From: Candidatus Dojkabacteria bacterium
Lineage (GTDB): Bacteria > Patescibacteriota > Dojkabacteria > SC72
NCBI GenBank assembly: GCA_034005145.1
Contig: JAVEVH010000001.1
Location: forward strand, 1,899-65,898
DNA: 64,000 nt
Direction: 5' to 3'
The notes beneath the pieces are model-generated. The model saw nothing but the letters and a program-made list of their open reading frames with translations, ran no database searches and was not told the DNA's origin. Every line of letters begins with the position of its first letter. Within the stretch, counting starts at the first letter, position 1. Shown in pieces: positions 9,244 to 59,689 of this stretch. The translations under genes were made by a program, and so were the position numbers.

Positions 9244-9316
9244 GGGCTCATAGTTTAGTTGGGAGAACATCGCATTCGCATTGCGAAGGTCGCCGGTTCA
9301 ACTCCGGCTGAGTCCA
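9244..9316 (+). tRNA. tRNA-Ala (anticodon CGC)
   Basis: Cloverleaf folded by hand: acceptor GGGCUCA/UGAGUCC with G3:U70 (Ala identity), anticodon loop UUCGCAU, T-loop TTCAACT. 73 nt, no encoded CCA. Confidence 0.8.
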
Positions 9317-9325
9317 TATACATGT

Positions 9326-9399
9326 GGGCCTGTAGCTCAGTTGGCTAGAGCACATCGCTGGCAGCGATGGGGTCAGGGGTTCGAACCCCCTCAGGTCCA
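9326..9399 (+). tRNA. tRNA-Ala (anticodon GGC)
   Basis: Acceptor GGGCCUG/CAGGUCC with G3:U70, anticodon loop CUGGCAG, T-arm AGGGGTTCGAACCCCCT. 74 nt. Confidence 0.8.
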
Positions 9400-9536
9400 T
9401 TTTGTTTACATATGTACATCAGAAGGTTAGGGGGATTGAATACTTTTCACAGCTATGTAAAACGGCTTGTTAATGGGAACTTTTCAAATCACAATATTTA
9501 AAGTAAAATACTCACATAACTAATACACACATATAT

Positions 9537-34777: not shown

Positions 34778-34802
34778 AATTGTGATAAAATCGATATATA
34801 AT

Positions 34803-34876
34803 GTACTTGTAGCTCAATTGGATAGAGCATTGGTTTGCGGAACCAAAGGTTGACAGTTCGATTCTGTCCAAGTACA
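34803..34876 (+). tRNA. tRNA-Arg (anticodon GCG)
   Basis: Acceptor GUACUUG/CAAGUAC, D-arm GCTCAATTGGATAGAGC, anticodon stem TTGGT/ACCAA with loop UUGCGGA (U33, G37), T-arm GACAGTTCGATTCTGTC. 74 nt. Confidence 0.7.
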
Positions 34877-34879
34877 TAC

Positions 34880-34953
<74 letters not shown>

Positions 34954-36788: not shown

Positions 36789-36968
36789 ATGTTTTTTAAA
36801 AAATATTGGATATTCTTTGTAGCCATTGTATATATTCTTCTTCCAACAGATCTAATACCAGATGTAATTCCTCTTTTTGGAGGAGTAGATGATTCCTTAC
36901 TCTTAGTATTAGGATTAATTAAGAGATATATTGATTACAAAAAAGAGAGAAAGAGTAACGGGGTGTAG
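36789..36968 (+). CDS. Small (59 aa) DUF1232/YkvA-like membrane protein (below ORF-track cutoff)
   Basis: ATG at 36789 to TAG at 36966-68. Translation MFFKKYWIFFVAIVYILLPTDLIPDVIPLFGGVDDSLLLVLGLIKRYIDYKKERKSNGV contains the DUF1232 signature DLIPD.IP..G..DD. The 3' 10 nt overlap tRNA-Pro. Confidence 0.45.
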   Translation: MFFKKYWIFFVAIVYILLPTDLIPDVIPLFGGVDDSLLLVLGLIKRYIDYKKERKSNGV

Positions 36969-37032
36969 TTCAGATGGCTAGAACGCTACGTTCGGGACGT
37001 AGAGGTCGTCCGTTCAAGTCGGATCACCCCGA
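36959..37032 (+). tRNA. tRNA-Pro (anticodon CGG)
   Basis: C1:G72 pair (CGGGGUG/CACCCCG) and A73 typical of bacterial tRNA-Pro. Anticodon loop UUCGGGA, T-arm GTCCGTTCAAGTCGGAT. 74 nt. Confidence 0.75.
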
Positions 37033-38955: not shown

Positions 38956-39690
38956 ATGAGATATAACAGAGATTTTTTCAAATTGATATATAAATATTCC
39001 TTAAGGTACTCTAAGATTACAGGGGAGGGTATAGAGGATGTTTTACTTACTCAGACACCATTTTATTACGCTATTGGCAATCATACATGGGAGAGTGATA
39101 AGAAATCAAAACTGTGGTTACAGTACATAGATGGTATTAAGGGAGGTCAATCTCCAGATGACTTAGCATATGAGATGTATATTAAGCATTTAGAAAAAAC
39201 TAAACTAAAATGGTTTGGATGTTTTAGGTATAAAAATACTGTAGATAAAGAAGGAATACCCATTATTAAAATACATTTTGAAAACTATGATACCTCTCCA
39301 TACGGTCCTCTCTCTAAAGAAAGAAAAGAGGTAAGAGTAAAGGAATTAAAAGAGATGTTTACTGAGATAAAGAGTTTGTATCCTGATGTTAAGTTCGTAC
39401 AGGGAGGTAGTTGGCTTTATAACTACGAATCATATAGGCGTCTATTTCCCGAGTCATATACAAAAGATATGCAATCACAACCAGTTAAAGATACTCGTAT
39501 GTTTGTACCATGGGGTCCATTTGTAAGTAGTGAGGGAGGATTAAAAGAAGATTTAGTAGAAGAATTTTTAAAAAAGATTGAAGTAGCTAAAACAGTAGAT
39601 CAATTAAAAGAATCTTTTCCATTAAAAGGATATTTCCCTAGGGGTAGAATAGAGGAATTCTATGAATTTTATGATATTTCTAAGCTGTAA
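38956..39690 (+). CDS. Hypothetical protein (244 aa)
   Basis: Long ORF with local codon usage. TGTATAAT extended -10 ends 5 nt before the ATG (leaderless candidate). No recognised motif. Confidence 0.5.
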   Translation: MRYNRDFFKLIYKYSLRYSKITGEGIEDVLLTQTPFYYAIGNHTWESDKKSKLWLQYIDGIKGGQSPDDLAYEMYIKHLEKTKLKWFGCFRYKNTVDKEGIPIIKIHFENYDTSPYGPLSKERKEVRVKELKEMFTEIKSLYPDVKFVQGGSWLYNYESYRRLFPESYTKDMQSQPVKDTRMFVPWGPFVSSEGGLKEDLVEEFLKKIEVAKTVDQLKESFPLKGYFPRGRIEEFYEFYDISKL

Positions 39691-39740
39691 AGATACTTGA
39701 ATTCAAGATTATTTAATAATAGGTATGTACAATAGTATAT

Positions 39741-40280
39741 ATGCCTATTAGTAATAAAAACTTAAAGGATGTTGTTTACGCTTTCTTGGATAGTCAGAAT
39801 CTTAATCTTGGTACATTGAAGAATTTATATAAGGGAAGAAAGTTAATCTATAAAGGTTGGAAGCTAGATTTTAGGAAGTTTCGAATATATTTAAAAGAGA
39901 AATTGGGTGTAGATAGGGCGTTTTTATTTATTGGTTTCATTGAAGAGAATAAGTCTCTTTATAACAGATTAAGAGGATATGGATATGAGCTTGTTTTTAA
40001 AAAGATCATTAAAGGGGAGAAAGGGGAATTAAAAGGTAATATTGATGCAGATTTAGTCCTAAAGGTGCTACTTGAGATTGATAATTATGATAAAGCAATT
40101 ATTGTTTCGGGTGATGGAGACTTCTATAGCCTTTACAAATATTTGATTGAGGAGAACAAACTTAAGGGTATTGTTATTCCAAATAATAAATCAGAATCAT
40201 CACTACTTAAAGATTTTCAAAAATATAAGATATATTTGTGGAGGCATAGGGAGAGATTAGAAAAAAAATGGAGGGCGTAG
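39741..40280 (+). CDS. NYN-domain (LabA/PIN-like) putative ribonuclease
   Basis: NYN core: VVYAFLDSQNL..., DADLVLKVLLEIDNYDKAIIVSGDGDF. Confidence 0.65.
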   Translation: MPISNKNLKDVVYAFLDSQNLNLGTLKNLYKGRKLIYKGWKLDFRKFRIYLKEKLGVDRAFLFIGFIEENKSLYNRLRGYGYELVFKKIIKGEKGELKGNIDADLVLKVLLEIDNYDKAIIVSGDGDFYSLYKYLIEENKLKGIVIPNNKSESSLLKDFQKYKIYLWRHRERLEKKWRA

Positions 40281-40370: not shown

Positions 40371-41360
40371 TTAACTAGCTAATTGCCCACAAGCACCCTT
40401 AATATCCTCTCCTAAAGATTTTCTAATAGTGCATGTAATACCTCTTTCCTGTAATATCCTTTGGAATAGGGGGGTATTTTTGGATTTCTTAAAAGGTAAA
40501 CACTCATTCTCATTGTAATTAATTAGGTTTACTAAGGCTAATCTATCCTTTAATAGGTTTGCTAACTCTTTAGCATGTTCTACACTATCATTTATATTTC
40601 TAAGTAATACATACTCATATGTTATCCTCTTGTTACTCTTTTTTGTGTATGAATCTAACGTCTCTAAAAGGTCTTTTAAAGAATTACTATTAGATACAGT
40701 AGGCATTAGCATATTTCTTAACTTTTGATTAGGTGCATGTAAACTAATCGCAATCTTAACTCCTAAGTTTTTGGCTAAAAAGGTCCTTAAATTTTGAACA
40801 TAGCCTGAAGTAGACAATGTTACACGCCTTTTAGAAAAGGCTAACATATCCTTAGCTGTTATAGCGATAATTGAGAGTGAAACATTCTCTAAATTGAGTA
40901 GGGGCTCTCCCATACCCATGTATACAATGTTTGTTACTCTCTCATTTTGAGATTTTAAAATTCTACAAAAGTACAGTATCTGATCTAATATCTGTTGAGA
41001 ATCTAGATTCTCATTTAAACCCATCTGACCAGTAGCACAGAATATACATCCTACAGGGCACCCACTCATACAGCTTACACATACAGTATTTCTACCTTTC
41101 TCTTTCATTAATACACTTTCAATATGATTCCCTTTTTCTGTTTTAAAAAGTACTTTTTGAGTATTACCATCTTTAGAGGTATTAGAGGATATATATATCA
41201 GTTTTGAGAAGGGTATTTCCTCTTTAAGTTGCTCTCTTAAATCCTTTGGTAGAGTAGACATTTCATCCCATGAAGACACAAAATCTTTGTAGTAATGGCT
41301 ATTAATTTGTGATATCCTATAGGTAGGTAAATTGTGTTTTTTAACAAAGGTTTTAAACAT
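40371..41360 (-). CDS. rlmN: 23S rRNA (adenine2503-C2)-methyltransferase RlmN (radical SAM)
   Basis: Radical-SAM CxxxCxxC in VSCMSGCPVGCIFCATGQMG plus the downstream conserved Cys. RlmN/Cfr family architecture. Confidence 0.85.
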   Translation of the reverse strand: MFKTFVKKHNLPTYRISQINSHYYKDFVSSWDEMSTLPKDLREQLKEEIPFSKLIYISSNTSKDGNTQKVLFKTEKGNHIESVLMKEKGRNTVCVSCMSGCPVGCIFCATGQMGLNENLDSQQILDQILYFCRILKSQNERVTNIVYMGMGEPLLNLENVSLSIIAITAKDMLAFSKRRVTLSTSGYVQNLRTFLAKNLGVKIAISLHAPNQKLRNMLMPTVSNSNSLKDLLETLDSYTKKSNKRITYEYVLLRNINDSVEHAKELANLLKDRLALVNLINYNENECLPFKKSKNTPLFQRILQERGITCTIRKSLGEDIKGACGQLAS

Positions 41361-41378: not shown

Positions 41379-41876
41379 ATGAAAATGAAAGATAGTGGAG
41401 AGATATTAGAGAACTATGAATTTATAATAGTGGATGACTCCAGAGATAAAATAGATAATATTAGAAAAGAATTAACATCTTTAGAAGTGTTACCAAGAAT
41501 AGTAACGGGTGATGATGATTATATGGCAAGGACATTTCGGATTGTTAAAGAGGCATACAAAGAGGATAAAATACCCTTTTTGTTTTTAGATGAATATTTG
41601 GATATTCATTTCTCAGAATATGGTAGCAGTATCGCAGAAACCCTTATTGAATTCTTCGGAGAGAAGGGTGGAGTAATATTCCCGACTTCGGAATCTTTAA
41701 ACCATCAGCTTTGGAAGATTGATTTTTTAGTAAAAGATAGTAAAGATTGGTATATTGAAAGAGATTCTCATAGGGTAAAAGGAGAGAATCTCTCTAGTAA
41801 TATAAATGAGATTTGTAAAGAATATTTTTTCAAAAAAGATAAAGAAGAGAATAATTCAGAAATAAAGAATGGATAA
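41379..41876 (+). CDS. Hypothetical protein (start uncertain; the track's GTG at 41334 would overlap the divergent rlmN start)
   Basis: ORF only. First in-frame ATGs at 41379 and 41385. Confidence 0.3.
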   Translation: MKMKDSGEILENYEFIIVDDSRDKIDNIRKELTSLEVLPRIVTGDDDYMARTFRIVKEAYKEDKIPFLFLDEYLDIHFSEYGSSIAETLIEFFGEKGGVIFPTSESLNHQLWKIDFLVKDSKDWYIERDSHRVKGENLSSNINEICKEYFFKKDKEENNSEIKNG

Positions 41877-42369
41877 GAACAAGATTTCAAAATTTAGACC
41901 AATAATACCTGCTAGACTTCATACTGCTGCGTATATTGATTGGAGAAAGTATTTCTTTGCTCTTGGTACTGACTACCCTGTTTCTTACTTTGAGAGATTG
42001 GATCTTACTGCTGGGAATTTCGTAATATATTCCTGTTTAGAGAGTTGTGAAGAGAACAAAATACCCTTAATTGTAATGAATAGGGAGATTACTCTTAAGC
42101 CGTCATTGTATTTTAATACTACTTGGTTTAGAGATTTCTTTGGTACTTTAAAGCAGTTAAAAATAGCAGGAGTAATAGTCACAGATACAAGTGACGAGGG
42201 AAAGGAGCTAAATAGTGATATTAAAAGGATATTAGAGGAGGAAAAGAATAGGGATTGGATGGTAGAGAGTGTAGATAGGTTGGAAGATATAGAGGGTGTG
42301 TGTGAGAAATATATAGAAAAGATTGAATATATTAATCCAATCAGTATAGAATATAGGGAGAAGAAATAA
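41869..42369 (+). CDS. Hypothetical protein (166 aa), overlaps the previous ORF by 8 nt
   Basis: ORF only. Confidence 0.35.
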   Translation: MDKNKISKFRPIIPARLHTAAYIDWRKYFFALGTDYPVSYFERLDLTAGNFVIYSCLESCEENKIPLIVMNREITLKPSLYFNTTWFRDFFGTLKQLKIAGVIVTDTSDEGKELNSDIKRILEEEKNRDWMVESVDRLEDIEGVCEKYIEKIEYINPISIEYREKK

Positions 42370-42387: not shown

Positions 42388-43758
42388 ATGGCTGTTCAGT
42401 TTAATTACGTTGCCCCTAAGGGGTGGAGTCCTCCTAATGCAGATAAAGACTATTTAATCACATACCTAGATATTGAGTTAGCAGATGGGATATCAGATGA
42501 TAACTTTGAAGATGCTGCAGGTAGTTGTGCAGCTGAGAGTTCTACTGGTACATGGACTAAGGTAGATGAGGGAAAACACTCTGGTACTAAGTTAGCGGAT
42601 AAACTTAAGGCAGTAGCGTATGACTTAGATCCTAAGACAAAGACTTTTAAGATTGCATACAAGAAAGAGATCTTTGAAGAGGGTAATATGGCCGGATTGT
42701 TTGCTGGTATTGCGGGTAATATCGATAGTATGAAGATGTTAAAGGCATTTAGATTAATCGATGTCCGATTCCCTGAGAGTCTTGTTAAGAGCTTTCCTGG
42801 TCCTCAATTTGGTATTACTGGTGTAAGAGATTTTATGCAAATAGAAAGAGGTCCTTTAATGTGTACTGTACCTAAGCCTAAGGTAGGTAGAACTGCTAAA
42901 GAGCAGGCATATTTAGCTAAAATCCTCTTTACTGCAGCTAAGGGTGAGTTCCAGGGTATTAAGGATGATGAGAATCTAACTAGTTTGTATTTTAATAAGT
43001 TTGAAGATAGGTGTAAGTTAGTACATGAAGTACAAAGAGATATTGAGAAGAAGAGTGGTAAGAAGAAGTTGTATCTATGTAATACTACACACTCAGACTT
43101 AGACATTATGCTTGATAGGGCAGACCTAATCAAAAAGCATGGTGGTAGATGGATGATGATTGATGTTGTTACTACTGGGTTTACTGCAGTTCAAACAGTA
43201 AGAAAGCATAACCCTGGTTTAGCTATACATGCACATAGGGCTATGCACGGTCTTTTAGATAGAGAGTCAGGCCCTGGAGTACATGATAAAGGGGAGATAT
43301 TAGACTTCTCTATGTCTATGGTCGTAATTGCTAAAATCATGCGTTTACTAGGCGTAGATTCACTACATGGTGGAGCTCCTAAGACAAAGATGGAGAATTA
43401 CAATGAACCTAAATTAATACAGGAAGCCTTACAGGCAGATATTACACCAGAGAGTGATATGACACTTGGTCAAAATTGGTTTGGTATGAAAGGAGTTTGG
43501 CATACAGCTTCAGGTGGTTTACACTCTGGAACAATAGGGGACTCTATCCTTAAATTGGGTGAAGATATAATACTGCAAGCAGGTGGAGGAGTATTGGGTC
43601 ATCCATGGGGTATTGAAGCTGGTGTAGAAGCAATGGTTGAAGCTAGAGATATCGCTATGGAAAGGAAAGATTTAAAGCAATGGATATTAGATAATCCACA
43701 GAGTGCTCTTGCTAAGGCAGCCTCGCATTGGGGATTTGATCCTAGAATTGTATATTAG
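42388..43758 (+). CDS. rbcL: RuBisCO large-subunit, form II/III (archaeal/CPR) type
   Basis: Catalytic motifs: KPK.G (VPKPKVGRTAKE), carbamylated-Lys motif GIKDDENL, HAHRAMHG, and C-terminal SGGLHSGT...LQAGGGVLGHPWG. 456 aa, no small-subunit gene nearby. Confidence 0.85.
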   Translation: MAVQFNYVAPKGWSPPNADKDYLITYLDIELADGISDDNFEDAAGSCAAESSTGTWTKVDEGKHSGTKLADKLKAVAYDLDPKTKTFKIAYKKEIFEEGNMAGLFAGIAGNIDSMKMLKAFRLIDVRFPESLVKSFPGPQFGITGVRDFMQIERGPLMCTVPKPKVGRTAKEQAYLAKILFTAAKGEFQGIKDDENLTSLYFNKFEDRCKLVHEVQRDIEKKSGKKKLYLCNTTHSDLDIMLDRADLIKKHGGRWMMIDVVTTGFTAVQTVRKHNPGLAIHAHRAMHGLLDRESGPGVHDKGEILDFSMSMVVIAKIMRLLGVDSLHGGAPKTKMENYNEPKLIQEALQADITPESDMTLGQNWFGMKGVWHTASGGLHSGTIGDSILKLGEDIILQAGGGVLGHPWGIEAGVEAMVEARDIAMERKDLKQWILDNPQSALAKAASHWGFDPRIVY

Positions 43759-43783
43759 TAAAAAAGTATTGTACAATACCGCT

Positions 43784-45250
43784 ATGACAAACAAAGGTAT
43801 AACACCAAGAGAGAAAGATTACTCACAGTGGTATTTAGATATCATTGAAAGAGCAGAGTTAGCAGAAAACTCCTCAGTAAGAGGATGTATGGTGATAAAG
43901 CCATATGGTTTTGCAATATGGGAAAAGATTCAAGCTGAATTAAACAGAAGGATTAAGAGTATGGGAGTTAGTAATGCATACTTCCCCCTCTTTATCCCTA
44001 AATCATTCTTTTCTAAAGAGGCCCAACATATTAAGGGTTTTGCTAAAGAGTGTGCTGTAGTAACACATTACAGACTAAAAGAAACAGAGGATGGTAAGGG
44101 TGTAGAGGTAGATCCTGAGGCTAAATTAGAAGAAGAATTAATAGTTAGGCCTACCTCAGAAACCATTATGTATGATACCTTTTCAAGATGGGTTACCTCA
44201 TGGAGAGATTTACCTTTAAAGATTAATCAGTGGGCTAATATTGTTAGATGGGAAAAAAGAACGAGACCGTTTTTAAGAACTACTGAGTTTCTTTGGCAAG
44301 AGGGTCATACAGTTCATATGAGTCATGAGGAGTCCCAAAAGCAGGTTCTAGATGCACTAGAGATGTACAAAAGCTTTGCAAGAGAGGTCTTAGCGCTAGA
44401 TACATATACTGGTAAAAAGTCAGAGTCAGAGAAGTTTGCAGGGGCTTTAGATACCTATGGTGTAGAAGCACTCATGCAGGACGGTAAGGCTCTGCAGTTT
44501 GGAACCTCACATGACCTTGGTCAGAATTTTTCTAAATCTTTTGAAATTAAATATGCAGACAAAGATGGAGAGGTTAAATATCCTTGGCAAACAAGCTGGG
44601 GTGTAAGTACAAGAATGATGGGAGCTGTAATCATGTCTCATAGTGATGATTTAGGGTTAGTATTACCTCCAATAATAGCGCCTATAAAAGTAGTAGTGAT
44701 TCCTATATTTAAGGATGAAAATAAAGATGAGGTTATGAAATTCACTCAAAATATTACAGGTCAGATTACTAAAAAAATAGAGGATACTCACATAGATGAT
44801 AGGGAGTATCTATCTCCTGGCTTTAAATTTAATGAGTGGGAGAAGAAGGGAGTACCAATTAGAATAGAGATTGGGAAAAGAGATATAGAAAAAGATTCCG
44901 TTACTATAGTGAGAAGAGATATTAATGAGAAAAAAGAGATTAAAGTGGATGATATAGTAGGGGAGATTGAGAGAGTATTAATAGATATACAGGAATCTTT
45001 ACTAAGAAGATCTACAGAGATATTAAAGAAGGGTACACATACAGTAGAGTCATATGATGAGTTTAAAAAGATATTATTAGGAGATAAAGGTTTTATTAAA
45101 TCATACTGGTGTGGTAGTAAGGAGTGTGAAGATGGTATTAAATATGACAGTAAGGCTACGACTAGATGTTTTTCTAAGGAGGGTAGTGGCAAGTGTATAT
45201 ACTGTGGTAAAGAGAGTAAAAAGGAGTGGGTATTTGCCATTCCATATTAG
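43784..45250 (+). CDS. proS: Prolyl-tRNA synthetase, archaeal/eukaryote-like type (C-terminal Zn-binding domain)
   Basis: Class II core (motif 2/3 regions) and C-terminal Cys-rich tail CGSKECEDG...CIYCGKES...FAIPY. In-frame ATG at 43784 preferred over the track's GTG at 43703. Confidence 0.85.
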   Translation: MTNKGITPREKDYSQWYLDIIERAELAENSSVRGCMVIKPYGFAIWEKIQAELNRRIKSMGVSNAYFPLFIPKSFFSKEAQHIKGFAKECAVVTHYRLKETEDGKGVEVDPEAKLEEELIVRPTSETIMYDTFSRWVTSWRDLPLKINQWANIVRWEKRTRPFLRTTEFLWQEGHTVHMSHEESQKQVLDALEMYKSFAREVLALDTYTGKKSESEKFAGALDTYGVEALMQDGKALQFGTSHDLGQNFSKSFEIKYADKDGEVKYPWQTSWGVSTRMMGAVIMSHSDDLGLVLPPIIAPIKVVVIPIFKDENKDEVMKFTQNITGQITKKIEDTHIDDREYLSPGFKFNEWEKKGVPIRIEIGKRDIEKDSVTIVRRDINEKKEIKVDDIVGEIERVLIDIQESLLRRSTEILKKGTHTVESYDEFKKILLGDKGFIKSYWCGSKECEDGIKYDSKATTRCFSKEGSGKCIYCGKESKKEWVFAIPY

Positions 45251-48307: not shown

Positions 48308-48386
48308 GACAACTTACATTATATCATGATTTTCTTAATCTATTACCTTAAATTAGAGGTATGGAGATGGTATAATAACGGGGATT

Positions 48387-48460
48387 GCACCCGTAGCTCA
48401 ATTGGATAGAGCAACGCACTCCTAACGCGTAGGTTACTGGTTCGATTCCGGTCGGGTGCA
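48387..48460 (+). tRNA. tRNA-Arg (anticodon CCU)
   Basis: Acceptor GCACCCG/CGGGUGC, D-arm identical to the other two tRNA-Arg genes, anticodon loop CUCCUAA (one A-C mismatch closing the anticodon stem), T-arm ACTGGTTCGATTCCGGT. TGGTATAAT -10 lies 10 nt upstream. Confidence 0.65.
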
Positions 48461-48491
48461 TACCGTTAATATTTCTTACATATATACATAT

Positions 48492-52733: not shown

Positions 52734-53897
52734 ATGGGTATTTTTACTAAATCAGGAAAGTCATCTATGAAACTAAGTGAGGTTACTACCTTACTTTCTA
52801 AACTTAAGATACCTACTAGTTTAGTATTTACACCAATAAATCTTACTCAAGAGAAAGAGAAATTCTTAAACTCTGATACATATGAGCCTCAGTTTGAGTA
52901 CAAGATTGTTAAAAATAGGAATAGTGAGATATTAAAAGAGCTTTCATCAGTAAGAGAGATTACTGATGTAGATCCAAGAATCTCCTCCTTCTACCTCCAA
53001 TTAATAGAGTCTAAAAAAGATACAAACGATTTAATGCATGCTGTTGGTAATAATGAGTTAGTAACAGAGATATCCTTAAAGAAATATGGTAAACCATCTG
53101 CATTACTTTTTAGAAATGCTTCTAGAGTACTAAGGGGTGTAGTAGATGGATACAATCTTACTAAATATCCTAAGTTAGAGAAGGGGGATATTTTAGGATA
53201 TGAAGAGATAGTAGAGGTATTCAATACTGTCTTTGAGGAGCTTAATTTAGATGGATGGAGTGTAGCTAAGTCACAAAATATTGCTAAAAATGGTGTTAAG
53301 GTGGGTATTAAAAGAAAACAGATATTAGTAGACGCAGGTATAGAGAGGAGTAAATTCAAATTAAAGAAAACATTAGTACATGAGGTAGGTACACATGTAC
53401 TTAGGTCTGTTAATGGAGTTAAGAGTGGGTTCGAGGCCCTTAGTAAGGCTAACCTTCCAGAGTATTTAGATATTGAAGAGGGTTTAGCTACTTGGAATGA
53501 ATCTAATATGGATCTTTTAACATTGGGATGGTTAAAAGAGAAAGCTGCTTTAACATGGGCTATATATATTGGAGAGAAGCTTACCTTTAGGCAGCTGTAT
53601 AATAGTGTGTTAGGGGTATTGCCTCCTAAATCAGCATTTAGTGTTACATATAGGGTTAAGAGAGGACTAGGGGATACTAGTTATCCAGGTATATACTGTA
53701 AAGATATAGTGTACTTCAGGGGTTTTAGAAAGGTAAAAAAACAGTTAGAGAAAGACAAATCTATATATGAGAAACTATATGCTGGTAAAATAGATTTTAA
53801 GCAGTGTGAATGGGTAGATGAGGGATTAATTCCTAAAGCAGGATTAGTTCCTTCTAAAGAATTATGGAAGGGTATATTTAAAAAGGCTGGTATCTAA
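52734..53897 (+). CDS. DUF1704 / QEGLA-motif family putative zinc (tyrosine-type) carboxypeptidase
   Basis: HExxH (LVHEVGTHV) followed about 30 aa later by IEEGLA (QEGLA-like). Starts 2 nt after the mreB stop. Confidence 0.55.
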   Translation: MGIFTKSGKSSMKLSEVTTLLSKLKIPTSLVFTPINLTQEKEKFLNSDTYEPQFEYKIVKNRNSEILKELSSVREITDVDPRISSFYLQLIESKKDTNDLMHAVGNNELVTEISLKKYGKPSALLFRNASRVLRGVVDGYNLTKYPKLEKGDILGYEEIVEVFNTVFEELNLDGWSVAKSQNIAKNGVKVGIKRKQILVDAGIERSKFKLKKTLVHEVGTHVLRSVNGVKSGFEALSKANLPEYLDIEEGLATWNESNMDLLTLGWLKEKAALTWAIYIGEKLTFRQLYNSVLGVLPPKSAFSVTYRVKRGLGDTSYPGIYCKDIVYFRGFRKVKKQLEKDKSIYEKLYAGKIDFKQCEWVDEGLIPKAGLVPSKELWKGIFKKAGI

Positions 53898-54847
53898 TTA
53901 TCCTTAAATGCAGTAATAATTTCTTGAGCTATATTAATAGGATTTTCTGTTTTATTCTCGTATGCCTTAAATCCAGGATGTAAACTTATTTCCTGTAGTA
54001 ATGGTTTGTCTTTCATCATCATAATATCTACTGCTAAAAAGTCTGCCTCAAGGATTCGTGAAACATTTTGGGCCAAGGCTTTTAATTTTCCCTCAGGATT
54101 ATTGTAAGCATGGTATTCCCCCTTGCTCACTGTCATGAAACTATCCGTTGCTTCTCGTCTCCATCCTGCTATTACTTTGCCTAACTTAATAAATATACGT
54201 ATATCCTGGGCACTATCCGAGAACTCCTGTATAAACATCCTAGAGTGATCTAAATCTTTTAAATACTCCTGCCTATATCCATCTTCATTATCAATTTTAA
54301 ATACATTCTTTTTTACTTTCTCTTCACCATTTATATTTTCTAATCTATTAGCTCCAGAGTAATCTTTAATTATTAATGGGAATGCATTTAATATATCTCT
54401 GTGTGCAGAGTAATTACCATCTGTTCTAAAGTATGAGTCAAAGTAGGGGATATTATGTTTGGAGCAAAATAGAGCTAGCTCTATTTTATTGTAATATGGT
54501 AATTTTTTAATAGCTTGAGAATTTTGTACCAATATTTTGTTATCTGGATTGTCTGAGTTATGTTGATCAATGTAATCTACTATATATTTTTTAAATTGGT
54601 ACTGTATTGGATTATGTAAATCATGTCCTCTAAGTAGTATATGACTATATTTTCTAATATCCATACCTTTCGCTTTTATCACTGTTTCACCATTTATGAA
54701 CTCAAATTCGAGCTCATCAAAGTATGCTAAGGAGTGGGGTATATCTTTTTTGTCCAGTTCCTCAGTTAGTCGTAAATTGGTAGTGGCAATATTGTTCTCA
54801 TTTTCTGTTTTTACCCTCTGTTTTTTATCGATTATTAAGTAATTCAT
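53894..54847 (-). CDS. RimK-like ATP-grasp amino-acid ligase
   Basis: C-terminal half aligns to RimK: DIRIFIKLGKVIAGWRRE...VDIMMMKDKPLLQEISLHPGF vs DIRCLVVGDEVVAAIERR...[21 protein letters not shown]. Confidence 0.6.
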   Translation of the reverse strand: MNYLIIDKKQRVKTENENNIATTNLRLTEELDKKDIPHSLAYFDELEFEFINGETVIKAKGMDIRKYSHILLRGHDLHNPIQYQFKKYIVDYIDQHNSDNPDNKILVQNSQAIKKLPYYNKIELALFCSKHNIPYFDSYFRTDGNYSAHRDILNAFPLIIKDYSGANRLENINGEEKVKKNVFKIDNEDGYRQEYLKDLDHSRMFIQEFSDSAQDIRIFIKLGKVIAGWRREATDSFMTVSKGEYHAYNNPEGKLKALAQNVSRILEADFLAVDIMMMKDKPLLQEISLHPGFKAYENKTENPINIAQEIITAFKDN

Positions 54848-54851
54848 ATGT

Positions 54852-56540
54852 TTATATTTTCCTTATATTATCTATTAATTTCATCCTTTTATACCTCTTT
54901 AATATTTTCATATACTCTTTGTTTGTACTCATATCTTTTGTAATGAATACGGTATTAATATGATCAAAGCCCAGTCCGTACTCCTTTACATCATCCCAAT
55001 CTCTATGATGTATTACTATTACATCAAGTAGAGCATTACATTTTATAGATTCAAAGGATCTCCATCTTTGGGATTGTTCATTCATTAACATACCGTTAAT
55101 GTAATATCTTTCCTGTACGATTTCTCCTACAGTATCTTCCTTTTTAATCATCCATTTCCTTCTTAGTAGAGTAGGTAGGTCATCTTTACTTTGTCCAATT
55201 ACTACGAATTTCTTACATACATTTTCTTTAAGTAAAGCCTTTATATATGTTTCTGCTACATAGCTTCTCTGTTTACCAAGTATTGGATAGAAGTTAAGGT
55301 ATGATTCTGGCATTGTATTTACTTCTAGGATAGCGCCATTCTCTTTGGTTAATGGTTTAGAGAGATCTAGACACATTACATCTACACCTAAGGTAAAGGC
55401 GTGTAATGAGTTAGCTAGGCTCTCTACAATGGTTTTAATTTCCTTACTAACGGAATCTGTAAAGTCTTCTGTTATACCTCCCTGACTCATACTAGCGATC
55501 TTTCTTACCTGTATCTTTTCTTCCTTGCTAGGCACAGAGCTAAGTGTAAGCCCTTGTTCTTTAATGTAATCTTTAAGGGGTTCATCTATGTCTATGGGCT
55601 TTAATATATGGGCTGGGTTTGTAGTATCTCTTCTTGGATCTTTATTTTCTTTCTCTATTAATTCTTTAATAGTTAATTTACCATCACCGATTATAAAGGC
55701 AGGTATTCTTTTAGTAGCTATTTCTAACTTACCGTTAATAACTAGAAGCCTGTAATCTTCTCCCTGGACCTGTTCCTGTATCATTACTTTTGTTTGCCAT
55801 GTAGCTTTACCCTCTCCTGCCTCTTTAGCAAATTTAAATGCTTTTTTAGCCTCCTCTAATGTATTAATACCTACTACAACACCATGTCCACCTGTTAAAC
55901 CAGTAGGTTTAATTACGACTGGTTTCTCATACTCTGAAAATACTTCTTCTAAATGATTTAGGCTATCTATAACTTCCCACTTAGGAAGAGGAAGATTTAA
56001 TCTCTTAATCATTGTATTCGTAGACCATTTATCTCTTTGAAGATTTTGGGATATATATGCATCCTTAGAGGAAGCTATTGAACCTGTAATCTGAGAGCCC
56101 TTACCACATCCTAGAAGGTAGTATCTATTAAATATCCTCCTATATCCCTGTTTAAGATCTTTAATCATTAAATCGTCTAATACAGCTGGTGTAGTTTCAA
56201 TATTTTGATTATGTGCAGACTCTAGTACTGGGATTGTAGACATTGATTTAATTCTTCTTCCTATTACTTCTTCTATTACATACTGTTGTGCTTTTTCTAA
56301 TGTAATTTTACTTTTAGAAAGATTTACAAAGCTTTCTGCAGACTCTCTCCAAAGAAATGGTAATTTAGACCTTATAGTGAGGAGAGTGGGGGATATTGAG
56401 TATTCTTTAATAAAAAGAGGGTGGAAAGTAACAATTTTGTCTAGTATGGTAGTAATATCTCCAATATTATCTCCTTCTAAGGATATCTTTACTGTTGTAA
56501 ACTGTGATTCTAGATTTAGACCCTGTACTGTTTGTACCAT
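54852..56540 (-). CDS. Cyanophycin-synthetase-N-terminal-like ATP-grasp ligase (no Mur-ligase domain), with unique N- and C-terminal extensions
   Basis: YRLLVINGKLEIATKRIPAFIIGDGKLTIKELIEKENKDPRR ... SQGGI ... GVDVMCLDLSKPL...ILEVNTMP closely parallels the CphA ATP-grasp core. Confidence 0.65.
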   Translation of the reverse strand: MVQTVQGLNLESQFTTVKISLEGDNIGDITTILDKIVTFHPLFIKEYSISPTLLTIRSKLPFLWRESAESFVNLSKSKITLEKAQQYVIEEVIGRRIKSMSTIPVLESAHNQNIETTPAVLDDLMIKDLKQGYRRIFNRYYLLGCGKGSQITGSIASSKDAYISQNLQRDKWSTNTMIKRLNLPLPKWEVIDSLNHLEEVFSEYEKPVVIKPTGLTGGHGVVVGINTLEEAKKAFKFAKEAGEGKATWQTKVMIQEQVQGEDYRLLVINGKLEIATKRIPAFIIGDGKLTIKELIEKENKDPRRDTTNPAHILKPIDIDEPLKDYIKEQGLTLSSVPSKEEKIQVRKIASMSQGGITEDFTDSVSKEIKTIVESLANSLHAFTLGVDVMCLDLSKPLTKENGAILEVNTMPESYLNFYPILGKQRSYVAETYIKALLKENVCKKFVVIGQSKDDLPTLLRRKWMIKKEDTVGEIVQERYYINGMLMNEQSQRWRSFESIKCNALLDVIVIHHRDWDDVKEYGLGFDHINTVFITKDMSTNKEYMKILKRYKRMKLIDNIRKI

Positions 56541-56546
56541 GTTTTT

Positions 56547-57527
56547 TTATATTATCTTAGATATATACTCTATTATTGGAATTGCTACTTTAACTGTTTC
56601 TCCCTCATCTACTTTGTAGTGTACTCTTAATCCTGGATTGTAATTTATTTCATTTATTGCACACTTAGCAGGTTTAGTAATATCAGGAGTAATTATATCT
56701 ACGCCTCCAAACTGTGTCCCTATTGCTTTAACTGCTTTAACAGCAATATCTTTGTAGTATTGGTGTGTCTGTTTAGAACACTCCTGTGTAGTTCCTCCTG
56801 TAGAAAGATTACAGTTATATCTTAATATTACCTCTTCATTTACTTTGGGTATATAGCTAAGAGAGATATTTAAATTTTGGAGTCTCTGTTTAACCTCATT
56901 ATCTATTGTAATTGGTTTTAATATTTCTTTCTTTCTATCAATATTTTTATTCTCAATTAACTTCTTTATACTATCTTTACCATTACCTATTACATATGCT
57001 GATTTTCTTCTCACAATACCTATGACTTTATCTCCTAGAACTAAGAGCCTGTAGTTTTCTCCCTCTATGAATTCTTCTCCTATTACTTTGTAATCACTCT
57101 TAGCTTTAGATTCCTTTAATGCATATTTATATGCCTTTAGTACCTGTCCCTTATCTTTGGGTAATAGTGTTACTCCCTTTCCTCCTAACTGTTGAGAGGG
57201 TTTTATTACGATGTTTGTATACTGTTTAAAGAACTCTAATGCATCCTGTTTGTTTAATAGTGGTGTTTGCTTTGGTACAGGTATATCAAAATCAGAAAGT
57301 ACCATATTAGTAAGATTCTTTCTCTTAGCTATGGTTGTACTTGTTGTATTGGTTAATGGTGTTGCAGTATTAATTATGTACCAATGCTTACCATTACTTT
57401 CAAATTTAGCCATTAAAGATGGTACTACAATATTATATTTAATATTTAATATATCTGCTGCCTCAATGTAGTAGGCTAGATGTACATTACCAGCTATTTT
57501 TAAGTACTCTTCATATGTTTTAGACAT
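56547..57527 (-). CDS. Cyanophycin-synthetase-N-terminal-like ATP-grasp ligase (stand-alone, 326 aa)
   Basis: NYRLLVLGDKVIGIVRRKSAYVIGNGKDSIKKLIE ... NLSTGGT ... GVDIITPDITKP...INEINYNPG matches the CphA ATP-grasp signature blocks. Confidence 0.65.
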   Translation of the reverse strand: MSKTYEEYLKIAGNVHLAYYIEAADILNIKYNIVVPSLMAKFESNGKHWYIINTATPLTNTTSTTIAKRKNLTNMVLSDFDIPVPKQTPLLNKQDALEFFKQYTNIVIKPSQQLGGKGVTLLPKDKGQVLKAYKYALKESKAKSDYKVIGEEFIEGENYRLLVLGDKVIGIVRRKSAYVIGNGKDSIKKLIENKNIDRKKEILKPITIDNEVKQRLQNLNISLSYIPKVNEEVILRYNCNLSTGGTTQECSKQTHQYYKDIAVKAVKAIGTQFGGVDIITPDITKPAKCAINEINYNPGLRVHYKVDEGETVKVAIPIIEYISKII

Positions 57528-57546
57528 ATATTGATATATTTAAATA

Positions 57547-59022
57547 TTAAAAAGTATTACTTGTATCTATTAGATATCCTGTTAGATCGCTCCTACCAAT
57601 TGTAACTTGGTAAGGAGTATCAGAGTATTGAGTAGATACAAACTCAGTTATCTTTACTTTATCTAATATCTTTATTGGTATCTCAAATACTGGTCTAACG
57701 GTTATATCTCCATCTTCTACTATCTTTGCTAACCTCTTTATATCCTTACTTTCAGATATTTTTTCTTCATACTTATCTATGTACTCTTGTGCCTGTTTAA
57801 AACTTTCGAACTTCTTGGGTACCTCTAACTTAGTAAACTCTTTATGAGCATTAATATATCCAATACGGTTGGCTAGCTTAGAATCTATTCTAGATGTAAG
57901 TACACCTGTATCCATGAATGCTTTTACTAACTCTTTTTTAATTTTTTGAGACTTACCAATCTTACTTATATCTGTACTCTTGTCATACAGAGATATTTTC
58001 TCTGTAATATTGAGTACCTGTCTACCGCTAATAGCTTCTATACTTTCTTCAATTTCACCACCAAAGAGGTTTTTAGAGACTCTCATACCGTGTCTAATAC
58101 CCTTAATCTTTAGATCTTTTACTTTCTCTAATCTCCATCTTAAACCTGCTTGATTAGCTACTTGAATACCTAGTCCTGGTCTAGCATTTATTTCAAATAC
58201 AACAGGTCCTTTATCTATATCTAATGCAATATCTACACCTATATATCCTAAACCACTTACTTTCTGACACTTCAAAGCTATTTCTAATATCTTATCCCAG
58301 TTAGGAATTTGAATACCACTTAATGGTTTATTATCTTTTAAATCAACAGTAGAGTCTATTAATTCGTATGTATCACTTAAAAAGATATTCTTTTTCATTT
58401 GCATAGAGTAGGTAGTAATACCTGTACCAATATCTATACCGGTACATATGGCTCCTGAGTGTAAATTGGCAGTACCATTACTTCTTCTTGTTGGAAGTCT
58501 TAGCATAGCCATAACGGGGACTGAATTAAAACATATTATTCTAATATCAGGTACCCCTCTATATGAATACTGTTTAAGTAGAGGGTCTGTTTTAATCCTT
58601 TCTTCAATGATAGCGGTGTCTGTTTTAGATCCCATTGAGAATCTACCCTCTAGTATATTTTCTATATGCAATATTATATCCCTTTGGTTCATAGTTGTAC
58701 CGTTAGGTCTAATCCATTCTAATTCTCCCTTCTTCTTACCGTAAAAAACGATAATACCGTTACCACCTGTACCTTGGTTAGGTTTGATTACGAAACTTTT
58801 AGGAAGGCTCTCCCAATCTAGAAACTGTAACTGTTTCTTACTCCTTATTAATTTGTATACCTCTGGAGTTTGTATTAACTCCTTTCTAAGAACCCTTTTA
58901 GTTAATATCTTGTTATCAGCAATAGCTTTGGATGAGGGAGGGTTATAAGGTCTTACATACTCTTGGTTTCTCCTGTTTAGACCTAATACCTCCTTATTTA
59001 GTTTTAATATACTACTTGTCAT
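57547..59022 (-). CDS. Alpha-L-glutamate-ligase-related (RimK-related) ATP-grasp protein with ~190-aa C-terminal extension
   Basis: N-terminal signature LGLNRRNQEYVRPYNPP...DNKILTKRVL typical of this RimK-related family. ATP-grasp core follows, then a C-terminal region of unknown fold. Confidence 0.6.
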   Translation of the reverse strand: MTSSILKLNKEVLGLNRRNQEYVRPYNPPSSKAIADNKILTKRVLRKELIQTPEVYKLIRSKKQLQFLDWESLPKSFVIKPNQGTGGNGIIVFYGKKKGELEWIRPNGTTMNQRDIILHIENILEGRFSMGSKTDTAIIEERIKTDPLLKQYSYRGVPDIRIICFNSVPVMAMLRLPTRRSNGTANLHSGAICTGIDIGTGITTYSMQMKKNIFLSDTYELIDSTVDLKDNKPLSGIQIPNWDKILEIALKCQKVSGLGYIGVDIALDIDKGPVVFEINARPGLGIQVANQAGLRWRLEKVKDLKIKGIRHGMRVSKNLFGGEIEESIEAISGRQVLNITEKISLYDKSTDISKIGKSQKIKKELVKAFMDTGVLTSRIDSKLANRIGYINAHKEFTKLEVPKKFESFKQAQEYIDKYEEKISESKDIKRLAKIVEDGDITVRPVFEIPIKILDKVKITEFVSTQYSDTPYQVTIGRSDLTGYLIDTSNTF

Positions 59023-59689
59023 CGTCTCTACCAGTAAATCTAAATCTAAAGTAATCCTTTATCCTCAAACCTTTAAACATACCAATTAAGATATTTAAGA
59101 TTGCAAGTAGAGGTATTAACCATAGATTGTTTAGGAAGTAGTCAGAGATTATCTCTCTAGTTATTACAAACCATCCAAATACTGCTACTAAGATTGTAGT
59201 AAGTAGAGTCATTACAGATGATTGTAGGGACTTTTTGACATACTGCTTTGTAAAAAAGTCAGAGAGAGCCGCTATTGATATGAAAGCGAGTGGGGGGATA
59301 TTAGACATATTCTCTAAACCTAATCCTAAGGTATCTATTAATACAAAGAAAAGAACTAATACCATTGAGAGGACAATATAGTTGGTAGCAATACGAGTAA
59401 TGTAATGTATTCTTACCTTTTTAAGTACAGAGTAGGAGAGTAAAGAGGTTAATATTACAATCAATGTTACTGCTAAACCGTATTTTAATCCTGTATATGA
59501 GTATGCAATTGAAAGAAGTACTGGAGCATATATACCGTATGTCTTACCTCCTACAAGATATCTAGAGATACTTACAATGGTTGCTACAATACACATAGCT
59601 ATGAGTATTTCTAATACCATTTGTGATATACCATGATCAATTATCCACTCTGTTAACTTGGATGTTTCAAACATATATATATTGATCAA
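59012..59689 (-). CDS. Polytopic membrane protein (6-7 TM), first gene of the ATP-grasp operon
   Basis: Hydrophobic helices throughout. Stop overlaps the next gene's start by 11 nt. The start is more likely the ATG at 59674 than the TTG at 59689. Confidence 0.5.
   Translation of the reverse strand: MINIYMFETSKLTEWIIDHGISQMVLEILIAMCIVATIVSISRYLVGGKTYGIYAPVLLSIAYSYTGLKYGLAVTLIVILTSLLSYSVLKKVRIHYITRIATNYIVLSMVLVLFFVLIDTLGLGLENMSNIPPLAFISIAALSDFFTKQYVKKSLQSSVMTLLTTILVAVFGWFVITREIISDYFLNNLWLIPLLAILNILIGMFKGLRIKDYFRFRFTGRDDDK

What the first reader, a model, noticed from the sequence alone, without database searches (positions are those of the whole stretch)
42388..45250. Form II/III-type RuBisCO large subunit next to an archaeal-type ProRS in a heterotroph-like context (nucleoside-salvage RuBisCO)
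Seen: all catalytic motifs of RuBisCO large subunit (KPK.G, GIKDDENL with the carbamylated Lys, HAHRAMHG, SGG.H, LQAGGGVLGHPWG). No small subunit, phosphoribulokinase or carboxysome genes are in the window. Established: form III and II/III RuBisCOs of archaea and CPR bacteria work with AMP phosphorylase and ribose-1,5-bisphosphate isomerase to channel nucleoside ribose into glycolysis. Two small overlapping unknown ORFs (41379-42369) sit directly upstream and might be pathway partners. This also supports the CPR-like lineage call.
Basis: partly seen in the sequence, partly recalled or inferred. Interest (0 to 1): 0.5.

Follow-up and report, generated by a model that had tools for sequence, protein, structure and literature searches.

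The report
Form III-like RuBisCO of a Dojkabacterium
The gene is a real, intact RuBisCO large subunit of the already described "Form III-like" type carried by tiny Dojkabacteria (CPR) bacteria, so the finding is correct in outline but ordinary, and two of its details (the Form II/III label and the upstream "partner" genes) do not hold.

Summary
Window 42388-43758 (+) encodes a 456-aa RuBisCO large subunit with every catalytic residue, followed 25 nt later by an archaeal-type ProRS. The classification in the title is wrong. The protein is not Form II/III but "Form III-like" (Wrighton 2016; Jaffe 2019). It is 96-97% identical to deposited sequences with that label. It falls in a clade with 100/100 bootstrap support and carries that clade's 11-residue insertion. 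It scores 377 bits on the form III model and 173 on the form II model. The host is a Candidatus Dojkabacteria (WS6) bacterium. rbcL lies in a fixed housekeeping slot (argS-rlmN-rbcL-proS-uvrA) in all 35 distinct Dojkabacteria loci examined. It has the lowest dN/dS of the block (0.03). The two upstream ORFs are a fast-evolving, lineage-restricted tandem pair. They are missing from at least 13 related loci, so they are not conserved pathway partners. No AMP phosphorylase, R15P isomerase, PRK or small subunit lies in the window or within 10 kb of rbcL in relatives. The nucleoside-salvage role therefore rests on the literature, and I did not test it. One caveat: recombinant WS6 enzymes showed no detectable activity in the 2016 study. 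Verdict: already known, low interest.

The parts
42388..43758 (+). rbcL: Form III-like RuBisCO large subunit, 456 aa
   Evidence: Pfam and NCBIfam. Best solved-structure match is T. kodakarensis type III. 96-97% identical to nr entries named 'RuBisCO long chain, Form III-like'. Clade support 100/100. dN/dS 0.031.
43279..43311 (+). 11-codon insertion (VHDKGEILDFS, aa 298-308) between the H294/H298 and H327 equivalents; signature of the Form III-like clade
   Evidence: It appears as a gap in the alignment to Tk RuBisCO. It is present in all 15 clade members and in none of 97 other representatives. [quoted passage not shown] It has low pLDDT in the AF2 monomer model.
42955..42978 (+). RuBisCO motif GIKDDENL with the carbamylated Lys (K192 = K201 in spinach numbering) and the Mg ligands D194 and E195
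   Evidence: All three are invariant in 119 Form III-like sequences.
43784..45250 (+). proS: archaeal/eukaryal-type prolyl-tRNA synthetase, 488 aa from ATG 43784 (the mechanical ORF begins at GTG 43703)
   Evidence: TIGR00408 547 bits, ProRS-C_1. Start inferred from the 488-aa orthologs. It follows rbcL on the same strand in 25 of 25 loci with at least 1.5 kb downstream.
41379..41876 (+). orfA: small protein of unknown function, 165 aa, first copy of a variable tandem pair
   Evidence: 100% identical to an NCBI 'hypothetical protein [Candidatus Dojkabacteria bacterium]'; only 4 homologs in the 5.8-billion-protein search. Family alignment A1. dN/dS 0.21. No Pfam or NCBIfam family. AF2 pLDDT 58, and the fold search gave no meaningful match.
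41869..42369 (+). orfB: diverged second copy of the same small-protein family, 166 aa, overlapping orfA by 8 nt
   Evidence: Joined to the orfA family by single-linkage BLAST and by alignment. Found only in 4 close relatives (L013, L014, L029, L030). dN/dS 0.21.
40371..41360 (-). rlmN: radical-SAM rRNA/tRNA methyltransferase, the conserved divergent upstream neighbour
   Evidence: TIGR00048 334 bits. It lies directly next to rbcL (39-170 nt gap) in 13 related loci.

Best explanation
This is the large-subunit-only Form III-like RuBisCO of a Candidatus Dojkabacteria (WS6, CPR) bacterium. It is an intact enzyme under strong purifying selection, with the full carboxylase active site. It most likely carboxylates ribulose-1,5-bisphosphate made from nucleotide ribose. 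In that pathway AMP phosphorylase makes ribose-1,5-bisphosphate and an e2b2-type isomerase converts it to RuBP. Both enzymes would be encoded elsewhere in the genome. The reaction yields two 3-phosphoglycerate, which enter lower glycolysis for substrate-level ATP formation. Shown here: the gene's identity, its form, its lineage, active-site conservation, the strength of selection, and its fixed position in the argS-rlmN-rbcL-proS-uvrA block. Inferred from literature only: the substrate supply route and the physiological role. The adjacency to proS is conserved synteny, possibly with co-transcription, and not a known functional link. The two upstream ORFs are an accessory, lineage-restricted cassette.
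For: Both RuBisCO domains are present. The form III model is the best match. The AF2 model (pLDDT 89) superposes on T. kodakarensis type III RuBisCO at TM 0.87-0.93. All 21 catalytic and RuBP-binding positions are intact in the window and in at least 96% of 119 clade members. The clade has 100/100 bootstrap support and a clade-specific 11-aa insertion. The protein is 96% identical to the nr entry named 'Form III-like' (97% to the closest, unnamed hit) and 83-84% identical to the rbcL of WS6 GW2011_GWE2_33_157, a genome listed as III-like in Wrighton 2016. dN/dS is 0.031, the lowest of the block and below ProRS, ArgRS and RlmN. RbcL divergence tracks that of the flanking housekeeping genes across 35 distinct loci. 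Wrighton 2016 states that all RubisCO-bearing CPR genomes it studied, including WS6, encode AMP phosphorylase and R15P isomerase, lack PRK, and that WS6 keeps only the 3-PGA-to-acetate part of glycolysis.
Against: No AMP phosphorylase or R15P isomerase lies in the 64-kb window, within 10 kb of rbcL in 51 related loci, or in 12 kb beyond the window end in a relative. My attempt to show co-occurrence in a Dojkabacteria genome failed. Wrighton 2016 reports that recombinant WS6 proteins gave no detectable RuBP-dependent CO2 fixation and calls their annotation uncertain. I found no paper that clearly reports carboxylase activity for a Form III-like enzyme.
Confidence: 0.7

Rival explanations
1. The same enzyme is fed by the alternative archaeal route. 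Nucleoside phosphorylases make ribose-1-phosphate, an ADP-dependent R1P kinase makes ribose-1,5-bisphosphate, and the isomerase makes RuBP. AMP phosphorylase is not involved.
For: Wrighton 2016 describes this route and found weak support for it in some CPR genomes. No AMP phosphorylase is linked to rbcL in any locus examined.
Against: Wrighton 2016 reports AMP phosphorylase homologs in all RubisCO-bearing CPR genomes, and support for the kinase route only in Microgenomates and Peregrinibacteria, not WS6. The window contains no nucleoside phosphorylase or ribokinase-family gene.
Confidence: 0.12
2. The protein is not a working RuBP carboxylase in vivo. It has an RLP-like or otherwise different activity, or it needs a partner or assembly state that is missing in heterologous hosts.
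For: Recombinant WS6 proteins showed no detectable RuBP-dependent CO2 fixation. The clade has a unique insertion near the active-site barrel and the L335M change in 118 of 119 members.
Against: Every catalytic residue is conserved, including K175, K177, the carbamylated K201, D203, E204, H294, H327 and K334. RLP models score only 105-151 bits against 377 for form III. In the tree the protein lies with Form III-b, not with the RLP representatives. The 'missing catalytic residues' reported in 2016 may be an assembly artefact: the GW2011_GWE2_33_157 rbcL has two frameshifts and 5 N exactly at loop 6. Form III enzymes generally express poorly in E. coli, with about 30% soluble.
Confidence: 0.1
3. 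The enzyme works in a PRK-dependent CBB-like or reductive hexulose-phosphate type cycle, that is, in CO2 assimilation.
For: Jaffe 2019 found PRK in some CPR (Gottesmanbacteria with III-like or III-c enzymes, and Peregrinibacteria).
Against: The window has no PRK. PRK was not reported in Dojkabacteria. [quoted passage not shown]
Confidence: 0.04
4. orfA and orfB are functional partners of RuBisCO (regulators, chaperones or pathway enzymes).
For: Wherever this family occurs it lies immediately upstream of rbcL on the same strand, with gaps of 18 nt or less and no terminator-like site. Both genes are under purifying selection (dN/dS 0.21). The N-terminal half resembles a receiver-type beta-alpha fold, and 3 of 23 members weakly match PF20274 cREC_REC (E 0.024).
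Against: They are absent from 13 of 23 loci with rlmN upstream, including relatives at 85-91% RbcL identity, and from all relatives below about 82% and all DPANN loci. They diverge about seven times faster than RbcL. The 5.8-billion-protein search returned only 4 homologs. No family or fold assignment was significant.
Confidence: 0.1

Closest known systems
Form III-like RuBisCO of CPR bacteria and DPANN archaea (Wrighton et al. 2016, ISME J, PMC5113843; Jaffe et al. 2019, MBE, PMC6389311)
   Same: Same clade (100/100 bootstrap), same 11-aa insertion, same hosts (Dojkabacteria), no small subunit. The window protein is 96-97% identical to deposited sequences carrying this label.
   Different: Nothing of substance. 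This is another strain-level copy.
Form III-b RuBisCO of Thermococcus kodakarensis (AMP pathway, Sato et al. 2007; PDB 1GEH, 3A12, 3WQP)
   Same: Same fold (TM 0.87-0.93). All catalytic residues are shared, including V at the T173 position. Large subunit only. The proposed role in the nucleotide-ribose to 3-PGA pathway is the same.
   Different: Only 37% identity. The 11-aa insertion is absent in Tk. The host here is a mesophilic bacterium. The window protein scores below the TIGR03326 cutoff (377 against 497). Activity has not been demonstrated for the III-like clade.
Form II/III RuBisCO (Methanococcoides burtonii PDB 5MAC; Peregrinibacteria, SR1, some WS6)
   Same: Also found in CPR, also assigned to the AMP pathway, also lacks a small subunit.
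   Different: It is a different clade, closest to form II. The window protein scores 173 bits on the form II model against 377 on form III. There is no RAD insertion between alpha6 and beta7: the K334-to-S379 spacing is 41 aa here and 69 aa in MbR. No form II or II/III structure appears among the top 60 sequence hits or top 50 fold hits.
Form III-c RuBisCO of CPR (Jaffe 2019), often clustered with or fused to e2b2 and deoA
   Same: CPR host and the same inferred pathway.
   Different: About 38-42% identity and no 11-aa insertion. In III-c the partners are adjacent or fused (P0130 and P0131 fusions; the L052 cluster). Here they are not within 10 kb in any locus examined.

Membership tests
Bona fide RuBisCO large subunit (forms I-III) | N-terminal and C-terminal (TIM-barrel) RuBisCO domains | tested here: met
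   PF02788 E 1.6e-25 and PF00016 E 4.9e-56. AF2 model with pLDDT 89, TM 0.87-0.93 to type III structures.
Bona fide RuBisCO large subunit (forms I-III) | Complete catalytic and RuBP-binding set (E60, T65, W66, N123, K175, K177, K201, D203, E204, H294, R295, H298, H327, K334, S379, G380, G381, G403, G404) | tested here: met
   All are present in the window protein. L335 is M, and T173 is V as in active Tk RuBisCO.
Bona fide RuBisCO large subunit (forms I-III) | RuBP-dependent CO2 fixation | not testable with these tools
   Needs biochemistry. Wrighton 2016 found no detectable activity for recombinant WS6 proteins.
Form III-like RuBisCO | Monophyly with named Form III-like sequences, separate from III-a, III-b and III-c | tested here: met
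   NJ tree of 112 sequences with 100/100 bootstrap for the clade. 96-97% identical to nr 'Form III-like' entries. 83-84% identical to WS6 GW2011_GWE2_33_157, listed as III-like. HMMER score drops from 508 to 282 bits outside the clade.
Form III-like RuBisCO | Characteristic insertion of about 11 residues | tested here: met
   aa 298-308. Present in 15 of 15 clade members and 0 of 97 others. Described in Jaffe 2019.
Form III-like RuBisCO | Restricted to CPR bacteria and DPANN archaea | tested here: met
   The GTDB scan returned Dojkabacteria MAGs at 74-97% identity and Woese-/Nanoarchaeota at 53-55%. orfA is identical to a Candidatus Dojkabacteria protein.
Form II/III RuBisCO | Phylogenetic affinity to form II | tested here: not met
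   Form II model PRK13475 scores 173 bits against 377 for form III. None of the 20 labelled representatives among the 150 closest 50%-identity clusters scored best on the form II model, and their PRK13475 scores ranged from 129 to 285 bits, all below that model's 489-bit cutoff. Top sequence and fold hits are type III.
Form II/III RuBisCO | 29-aa RAD insertion between alpha6 and beta7 (present in archaeal and SR1 members, absent in PER) | tested here: not met
   K334 to S375 spacing is 41 residues. In M. burtonii the K330-to-S399 spacing is 69 residues, with the RAD at 361-389.
Form IV RuBisCO-like proteins | Loss of catalytic residues and best match to RLP families | tested here: not met
   RLP models score 105-151 bits against 377. 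Catalytic residues are intact.
CO2-incorporating AMP pathway (Sato 2007) | AMP phosphorylase (deoA-like) and R15P isomerase (e2b2) in the same genome | not testable with these tools
   They are absent from the window and from 10-kb flanks of 51 related loci. The co-occurrence attempt was inconclusive. Wrighton 2016 asserts presence for WS6 genomes.
CBB cycle | Phosphoribulokinase and a small subunit | tested here: not met
   Neither is in the window by Pfam. This covers the window only.

The most novel reading that the evidence does not exclude
The enzyme is under tighter constraint than the neighbouring aminoacyl-tRNA synthetases, and its active site is fully conserved, yet the only published assay of WS6 enzymes found no carboxylase activity. 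The Dojkabacteria Form III-like protein might therefore need a factor or assembly state specific to the clade to be active, for example one mediated by the 11-aa insertion or, in some strains, by the upstream receiver-like cassette. Alternatively it might act on a substrate other than RuBP.
Probability: 0.08. Interest if true: 0.6.

Novelty: already known. Interest (0 to 1): 0.18.

Why it matters
Dojkabacteria have some of the smallest known metabolic repertoires. RuBisCO is proposed to be the step that turns scavenged nucleotide ribose into 3-PGA, and from there into ATP. This analysis adds small points to that picture. The gene occupies one fixed housekeeping slot throughout the sampled Dojkabacteria and diverges in step with its neighbours, which is consistent with vertical descent after a single acquisition. 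It is also the most strongly constrained gene in that block, which fits a central role. None of this changes what is already published. The real open question is biochemical: the activity of the Form III-like enzyme and the function of its insertion.

Tried and rejected
(1) Exact look-up of the window RbcL and of a gene near the window end found nothing on record.

(2) To show that e2b2 co-occurs in a Dojkabacteria genome, I took the isomerase domain of two IF-2B::RuBisCO fusions as a seed. None of the top 120 hits carried a Dojkabacteria label. None sat on a contig whose length matched an rbcL-bearing contig. The contig of the one hit I followed (P0335) was a different CPR lineage with a Form III-b/c-type cluster.

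(3) A metagenome scan with a 38-mer from the window end gave relatives at 80-88% DNA identity. One extends 12 kb beyond the window and carries no AMP phosphorylase or e2b2.

(4) Motif regexes for the thymidine-phosphorylase, IF-2B and PRK families hit only the UvrA Walker A motifs.

The permitted 5-sequence alignment gave pLDDT 58. Foldseek then returned only generic Rossmann-like matches with TM below 0.4, so no fold was assigned.

(6) A Pfam scan of all 23 orfA-family members at E <= 5 gave only three weak cREC_REC hits. This is a lead, not a result.

(7) Supplementary tables of Wrighton 2016 and of the 2026 Nature Communications survey are not held as text.

(8) Promoter and terminator scans were at shuffle level, and the Rfam gathering-threshold scan found only tRNAs, so no riboswitch lies upstream of rbcL.

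(9) I considered a pseudogene or decaying gene and rejected it (dN/dS 0.03).
Full report
**Observation.** The window has an ATG-initiated ORF at 42388-43758 (+) of 456 aa. It matches both RuBisCO large-subunit Pfam domains (PF02788 E 1.6e-25; PF00016 E 4.9e-56). In spinach numbering, the window protein has these equivalents:
- E60, T65, W66: E50, T55, W56
- N123: N111
- K175, K177: K163, K165
- carbamylated K201, D203, E204: K192, D194, E195
- H294, R295, H298: H283, R284, H287
- H327: H327
- K334: K334
- S379, G380, G381: S375, G376, G377
- G403, G404: G399, G400

Position 173 is Val, as in the active T. kodakarensis enzyme, and position 335 is Met. The next ORF (mechanical start GTG 43703, end 45250) is a ProRS of the archaeal/eukaryal type (TIGR00408, 547 bits against a cutoff of 437; ProRS-C_1 domain). 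Its orthologs are 488 aa, which fixes the start at ATG 43784, 25 nt after the rbcL stop.

**Which form.** NCBIfam ranks the type III model first (TIGR03326, 376.7 bits, below its 497 cutoff). The form II model scores 173 bits and the RLP models 105-151 bits. By sequence, the best solved structures are the type III enzymes of T. kodakarensis and P. horikoshii (E about 1e-77 to 1e-76). No form II or II/III entry is among the 60 listed. An AlphaFold model built on 48 homologs (pLDDT 89, pTM 0.91) superposes best on the same type III structures (TM 0.87-0.93, 37% identity).

In the 5.8-billion-protein collection the closest sequences are 94-97% identical. Two of them (96% and 94% identical) carry the nr name "RuBisCO long chain, Form III-like [uncultured bacterium]", and relatives at about 70% are from Dojkabacteria/WS6. 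An exhaustive HMMER search of 1.84 billion representatives found only two full-length 50%-identity clusters near the query (54-56% identity, 508-561 bits). The next score is 282 bits.

I built a neighbour-joining tree of 112 sequences. They were the window protein, Dojkabacteria and DPANN relatives, the Tk sequence read, and the full-length representatives. Twenty representatives were labelled with NCBIfam. The window protein falls in a clade of Dojkabacteria and DPANN sequences with 100/100 bootstrap support. That clade is sister to the Tk Form III-b group, with 65/100 support.

An 11-residue insertion (VHDKGEILDFS, aa 298-308, nt 43279-43311) is present in all 15 clade members. It is absent from all 97 other aligned sequences. 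Jaffe et al. [quoted passage not shown] The Form II/III hallmark is a 29-aa RAD insertion between alpha6 and beta7 (M. burtonii residues 361-389). It is absent here: K334 to S375 is 41 residues, against 69 in M. burtonii. The title's "Form II/III-type" is therefore wrong. The protein is Form III-like, a clade first described by Wrighton et al. 2016.

**Lineage and surroundings.** orfA (41379-41876) is 100% identical to an NCBI protein of "Candidatus Dojkabacteria bacterium". A scan of one genome per GTDB species returned 35 loci. About 29 are Dojkabacteria MAGs at 74-97% identity, some mislabelled Saccharibacteria. Six are Woese-/Nanoarchaeota at 53-55%. One locus is WS6 GW2011_GWE2_33_157, which Wrighton 2016 lists as carrying a III-like enzyme.

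The window otherwise holds bacterial housekeeping genes: S1, ClpB/C-like, RadA, Rho, LeuRS, ComEC, ArgRS, sigma factor, RlmN, UvrA, MreB, L10, L7/L12. The window holds no small subunit, PRK, carboxysome gene, AMP phosphorylase or IF-2B-family gene.

I examined 35 distinct Dojkabacteria rbcL loci. A ProRS gene follows rbcL on the same strand in all 25 that have at least 1.5 kb downstream. rlmN lies divergently upstream in 23, and argS and uvrA flank the block. RbcL divergence tracks that of the neighbours. Examples are 89/78/81/73% identity for RbcL/ProRS/UvrA/ArgRS in one relative and 69/68/68/53% in the most distant one. This pattern is what vertical descent from one acquisition predicts. Against the closest relative, rbcL has dN/dS 0.031, the lowest of the block. 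The others are ProRS 0.041, RlmN 0.096, ArgRS 0.098. The gene is clearly functional and important.

**The upstream ORFs.** orfA and orfB overlap by 8 nt. orfB ends 18 nt before rbcL, and no terminator-like site separates them. They are not conserved partners, for four reasons:
- Among loci with rlmN upstream, 13 have rlmN directly next to rbcL (39-170 nt), 9 have a cassette of about 1 kb, and one has a 450-nt gap. Three further loci and the window also carry the cassette.
- Loci lacking the cassette include relatives at 85-91% RbcL identity, every relative below about 82%, and all DPANN loci.
- The cassette ORFs form one family of tandem duplicates that diverges very fast. They are 30-37% identical where RbcL is 87-89%, with dN/dS 0.21.
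- The large protein search returned only four homologs.

No Pfam or NCBIfam family matches. Three of 23 members weakly match PF20274 cREC_REC (E 0.024). That would fit the receiver-like "FxFIIVDD ... PxIFLDE" pattern in the alignment, but it is not significant. These are real genes of unknown function, accessory to the locus.

**Pathway context.** tblastn searches used a CPR AMP phosphorylase and three CPR R15P isomerase domains. These came from the L052 cluster and from the IF-2B::RuBisCO fusions P0130 and P0131. The searches found nothing at E <= 1 in the window or in 51 related loci, 734 kb in total. They also found nothing in 12 kb beyond the window end in a relative. In Form III-like loci the partners are therefore not linked to rbcL, unlike Form III-c, where they are adjacent or fused.

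I could not reach the rest of any Dojkabacteria genome. My indirect attempt through e2b2 homologs was inconclusive. The nucleoside-salvage role therefore rests on Wrighton 2016. That paper states that all RubisCO-bearing CPR genomes it studied, WS6 included, encode both AMP-pathway enzymes and no PRK. It also states that WS6 retains only the route from 3-PGA to pyruvate and acetate.

There is one caveat. The same paper reports that recombinant WS6 proteins gave no detectable RuBP-dependent CO2 fixation. It links this to "missing catalytic residues". In my alignment of 119 Form III-like sequences every catalytic position is conserved in at least 96%. The public rbcL of GW2011_GWE2_33_157 has two frameshifts and five N exactly at loop 6. 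The "missing" residues may therefore be assembly artefacts, though this is my inference. A 2025 survey found form III enzymes hard to express in E. coli, with about 30% soluble. A 2026 survey gives a melting temperature for a Kerfeldbacteria III-like enzyme. It also says the insertion forms a beta-sheet shared with an Asgard-related clade. I found no clear published carboxylase rate for the clade.

**Verdict.** The finding is a correct recognition of a known object: the Form III-like RuBisCO of Dojkabacteria, nearly identical to deposited sequences. The form label in the title and the "pathway partner" idea for the small ORFs are not supported. The salvage-pathway function is the best explanation but remains untested here. 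Novelty: already known. Interest: low.

Noticed in passing
window 12088-28161 (+): A single giant ORF of 5357 aa. Its only Pfam hits are a weak F5/8 type C domain and a Peptidase_S74 intramolecular-chaperone domain near the C-terminus. Relatives carry giant Laminin_G_3 proteins at the same position, so it is probably a huge surface or adhesion protein.
   Followed up: partly
L048-L051 (rbcL relatives at 73% identity), compared with window 43784-45250: At the same rlmN-rbcL-proS-uvrA slot these genomes carry a bacterial-type ProRS (572 aa with the tRNA_edit/INS domain). The other 24 loci carry the archaeal-type enzyme. This looks like an in-place replacement of one synthetase type by the other.
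   Followed up: partly
window 52734-59689: A MATCAP-like peptidase gene (+) lies next to a minus-strand run of four ATP-grasp genes (RimK-like, GARS_A-like, ATPgrasp_ST) and a 7TM_transglut membrane protein. It may be a peptide-ligase or peptide-modification system. The start of the cluster is conserved in relative L048.
   Followed up: no
L047 (WS6 GW2011_GWE2_33_157) 3008-4263: The public rbcL of this reference WS6 genome has two frameshifts and a run of 5 N exactly at loop 6 (the K334 equivalent). This may explain the 'missing catalytic residues' reported for WS6 in 2016.
   Followed up: partly
proteins P0229, P0161, P0130, P0131 (representatives; not in the window): RuBisCO fusion proteins exist in public data: TIR::RuBisCO (583 aa), RuBisCO::APH-type kinase (1265 aa) and IF-2B(e2b2)::RuBisCO (726-742 aa). 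The last kind is already reported for Form III-c.
   Followed up: partly
window 41379-42369 and the equivalent position in 12 related loci: A tandem pair of small, rapidly diverging paralogous genes of about 1 kb shows presence/absence polymorphism, always between rlmN and rbcL. The N-terminal half looks receiver-like, and 3 of 23 members weakly match cREC_REC.
   Followed up: yes
window 38956-40280: orf244 (no family) and a NYN-domain protein lie between the sigma-factor block and rlmN. Each was found in only a few relatives: orf244 in L013, L029 and L030, and NYN in L015. This is another variable spot in an otherwise syntenic block.
   Followed up: no
window 9244-9400, 34802-34953, 36959-37032, 48386-48461: There are six tRNA genes. 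tRNA-Arg(gcg) and tRNA-Arg(tcg) lie immediately upstream of argS. ARAGORN also called tRNA-Pro(cgg), which the Rfam gathering-threshold scan did not list.
   Followed up: no
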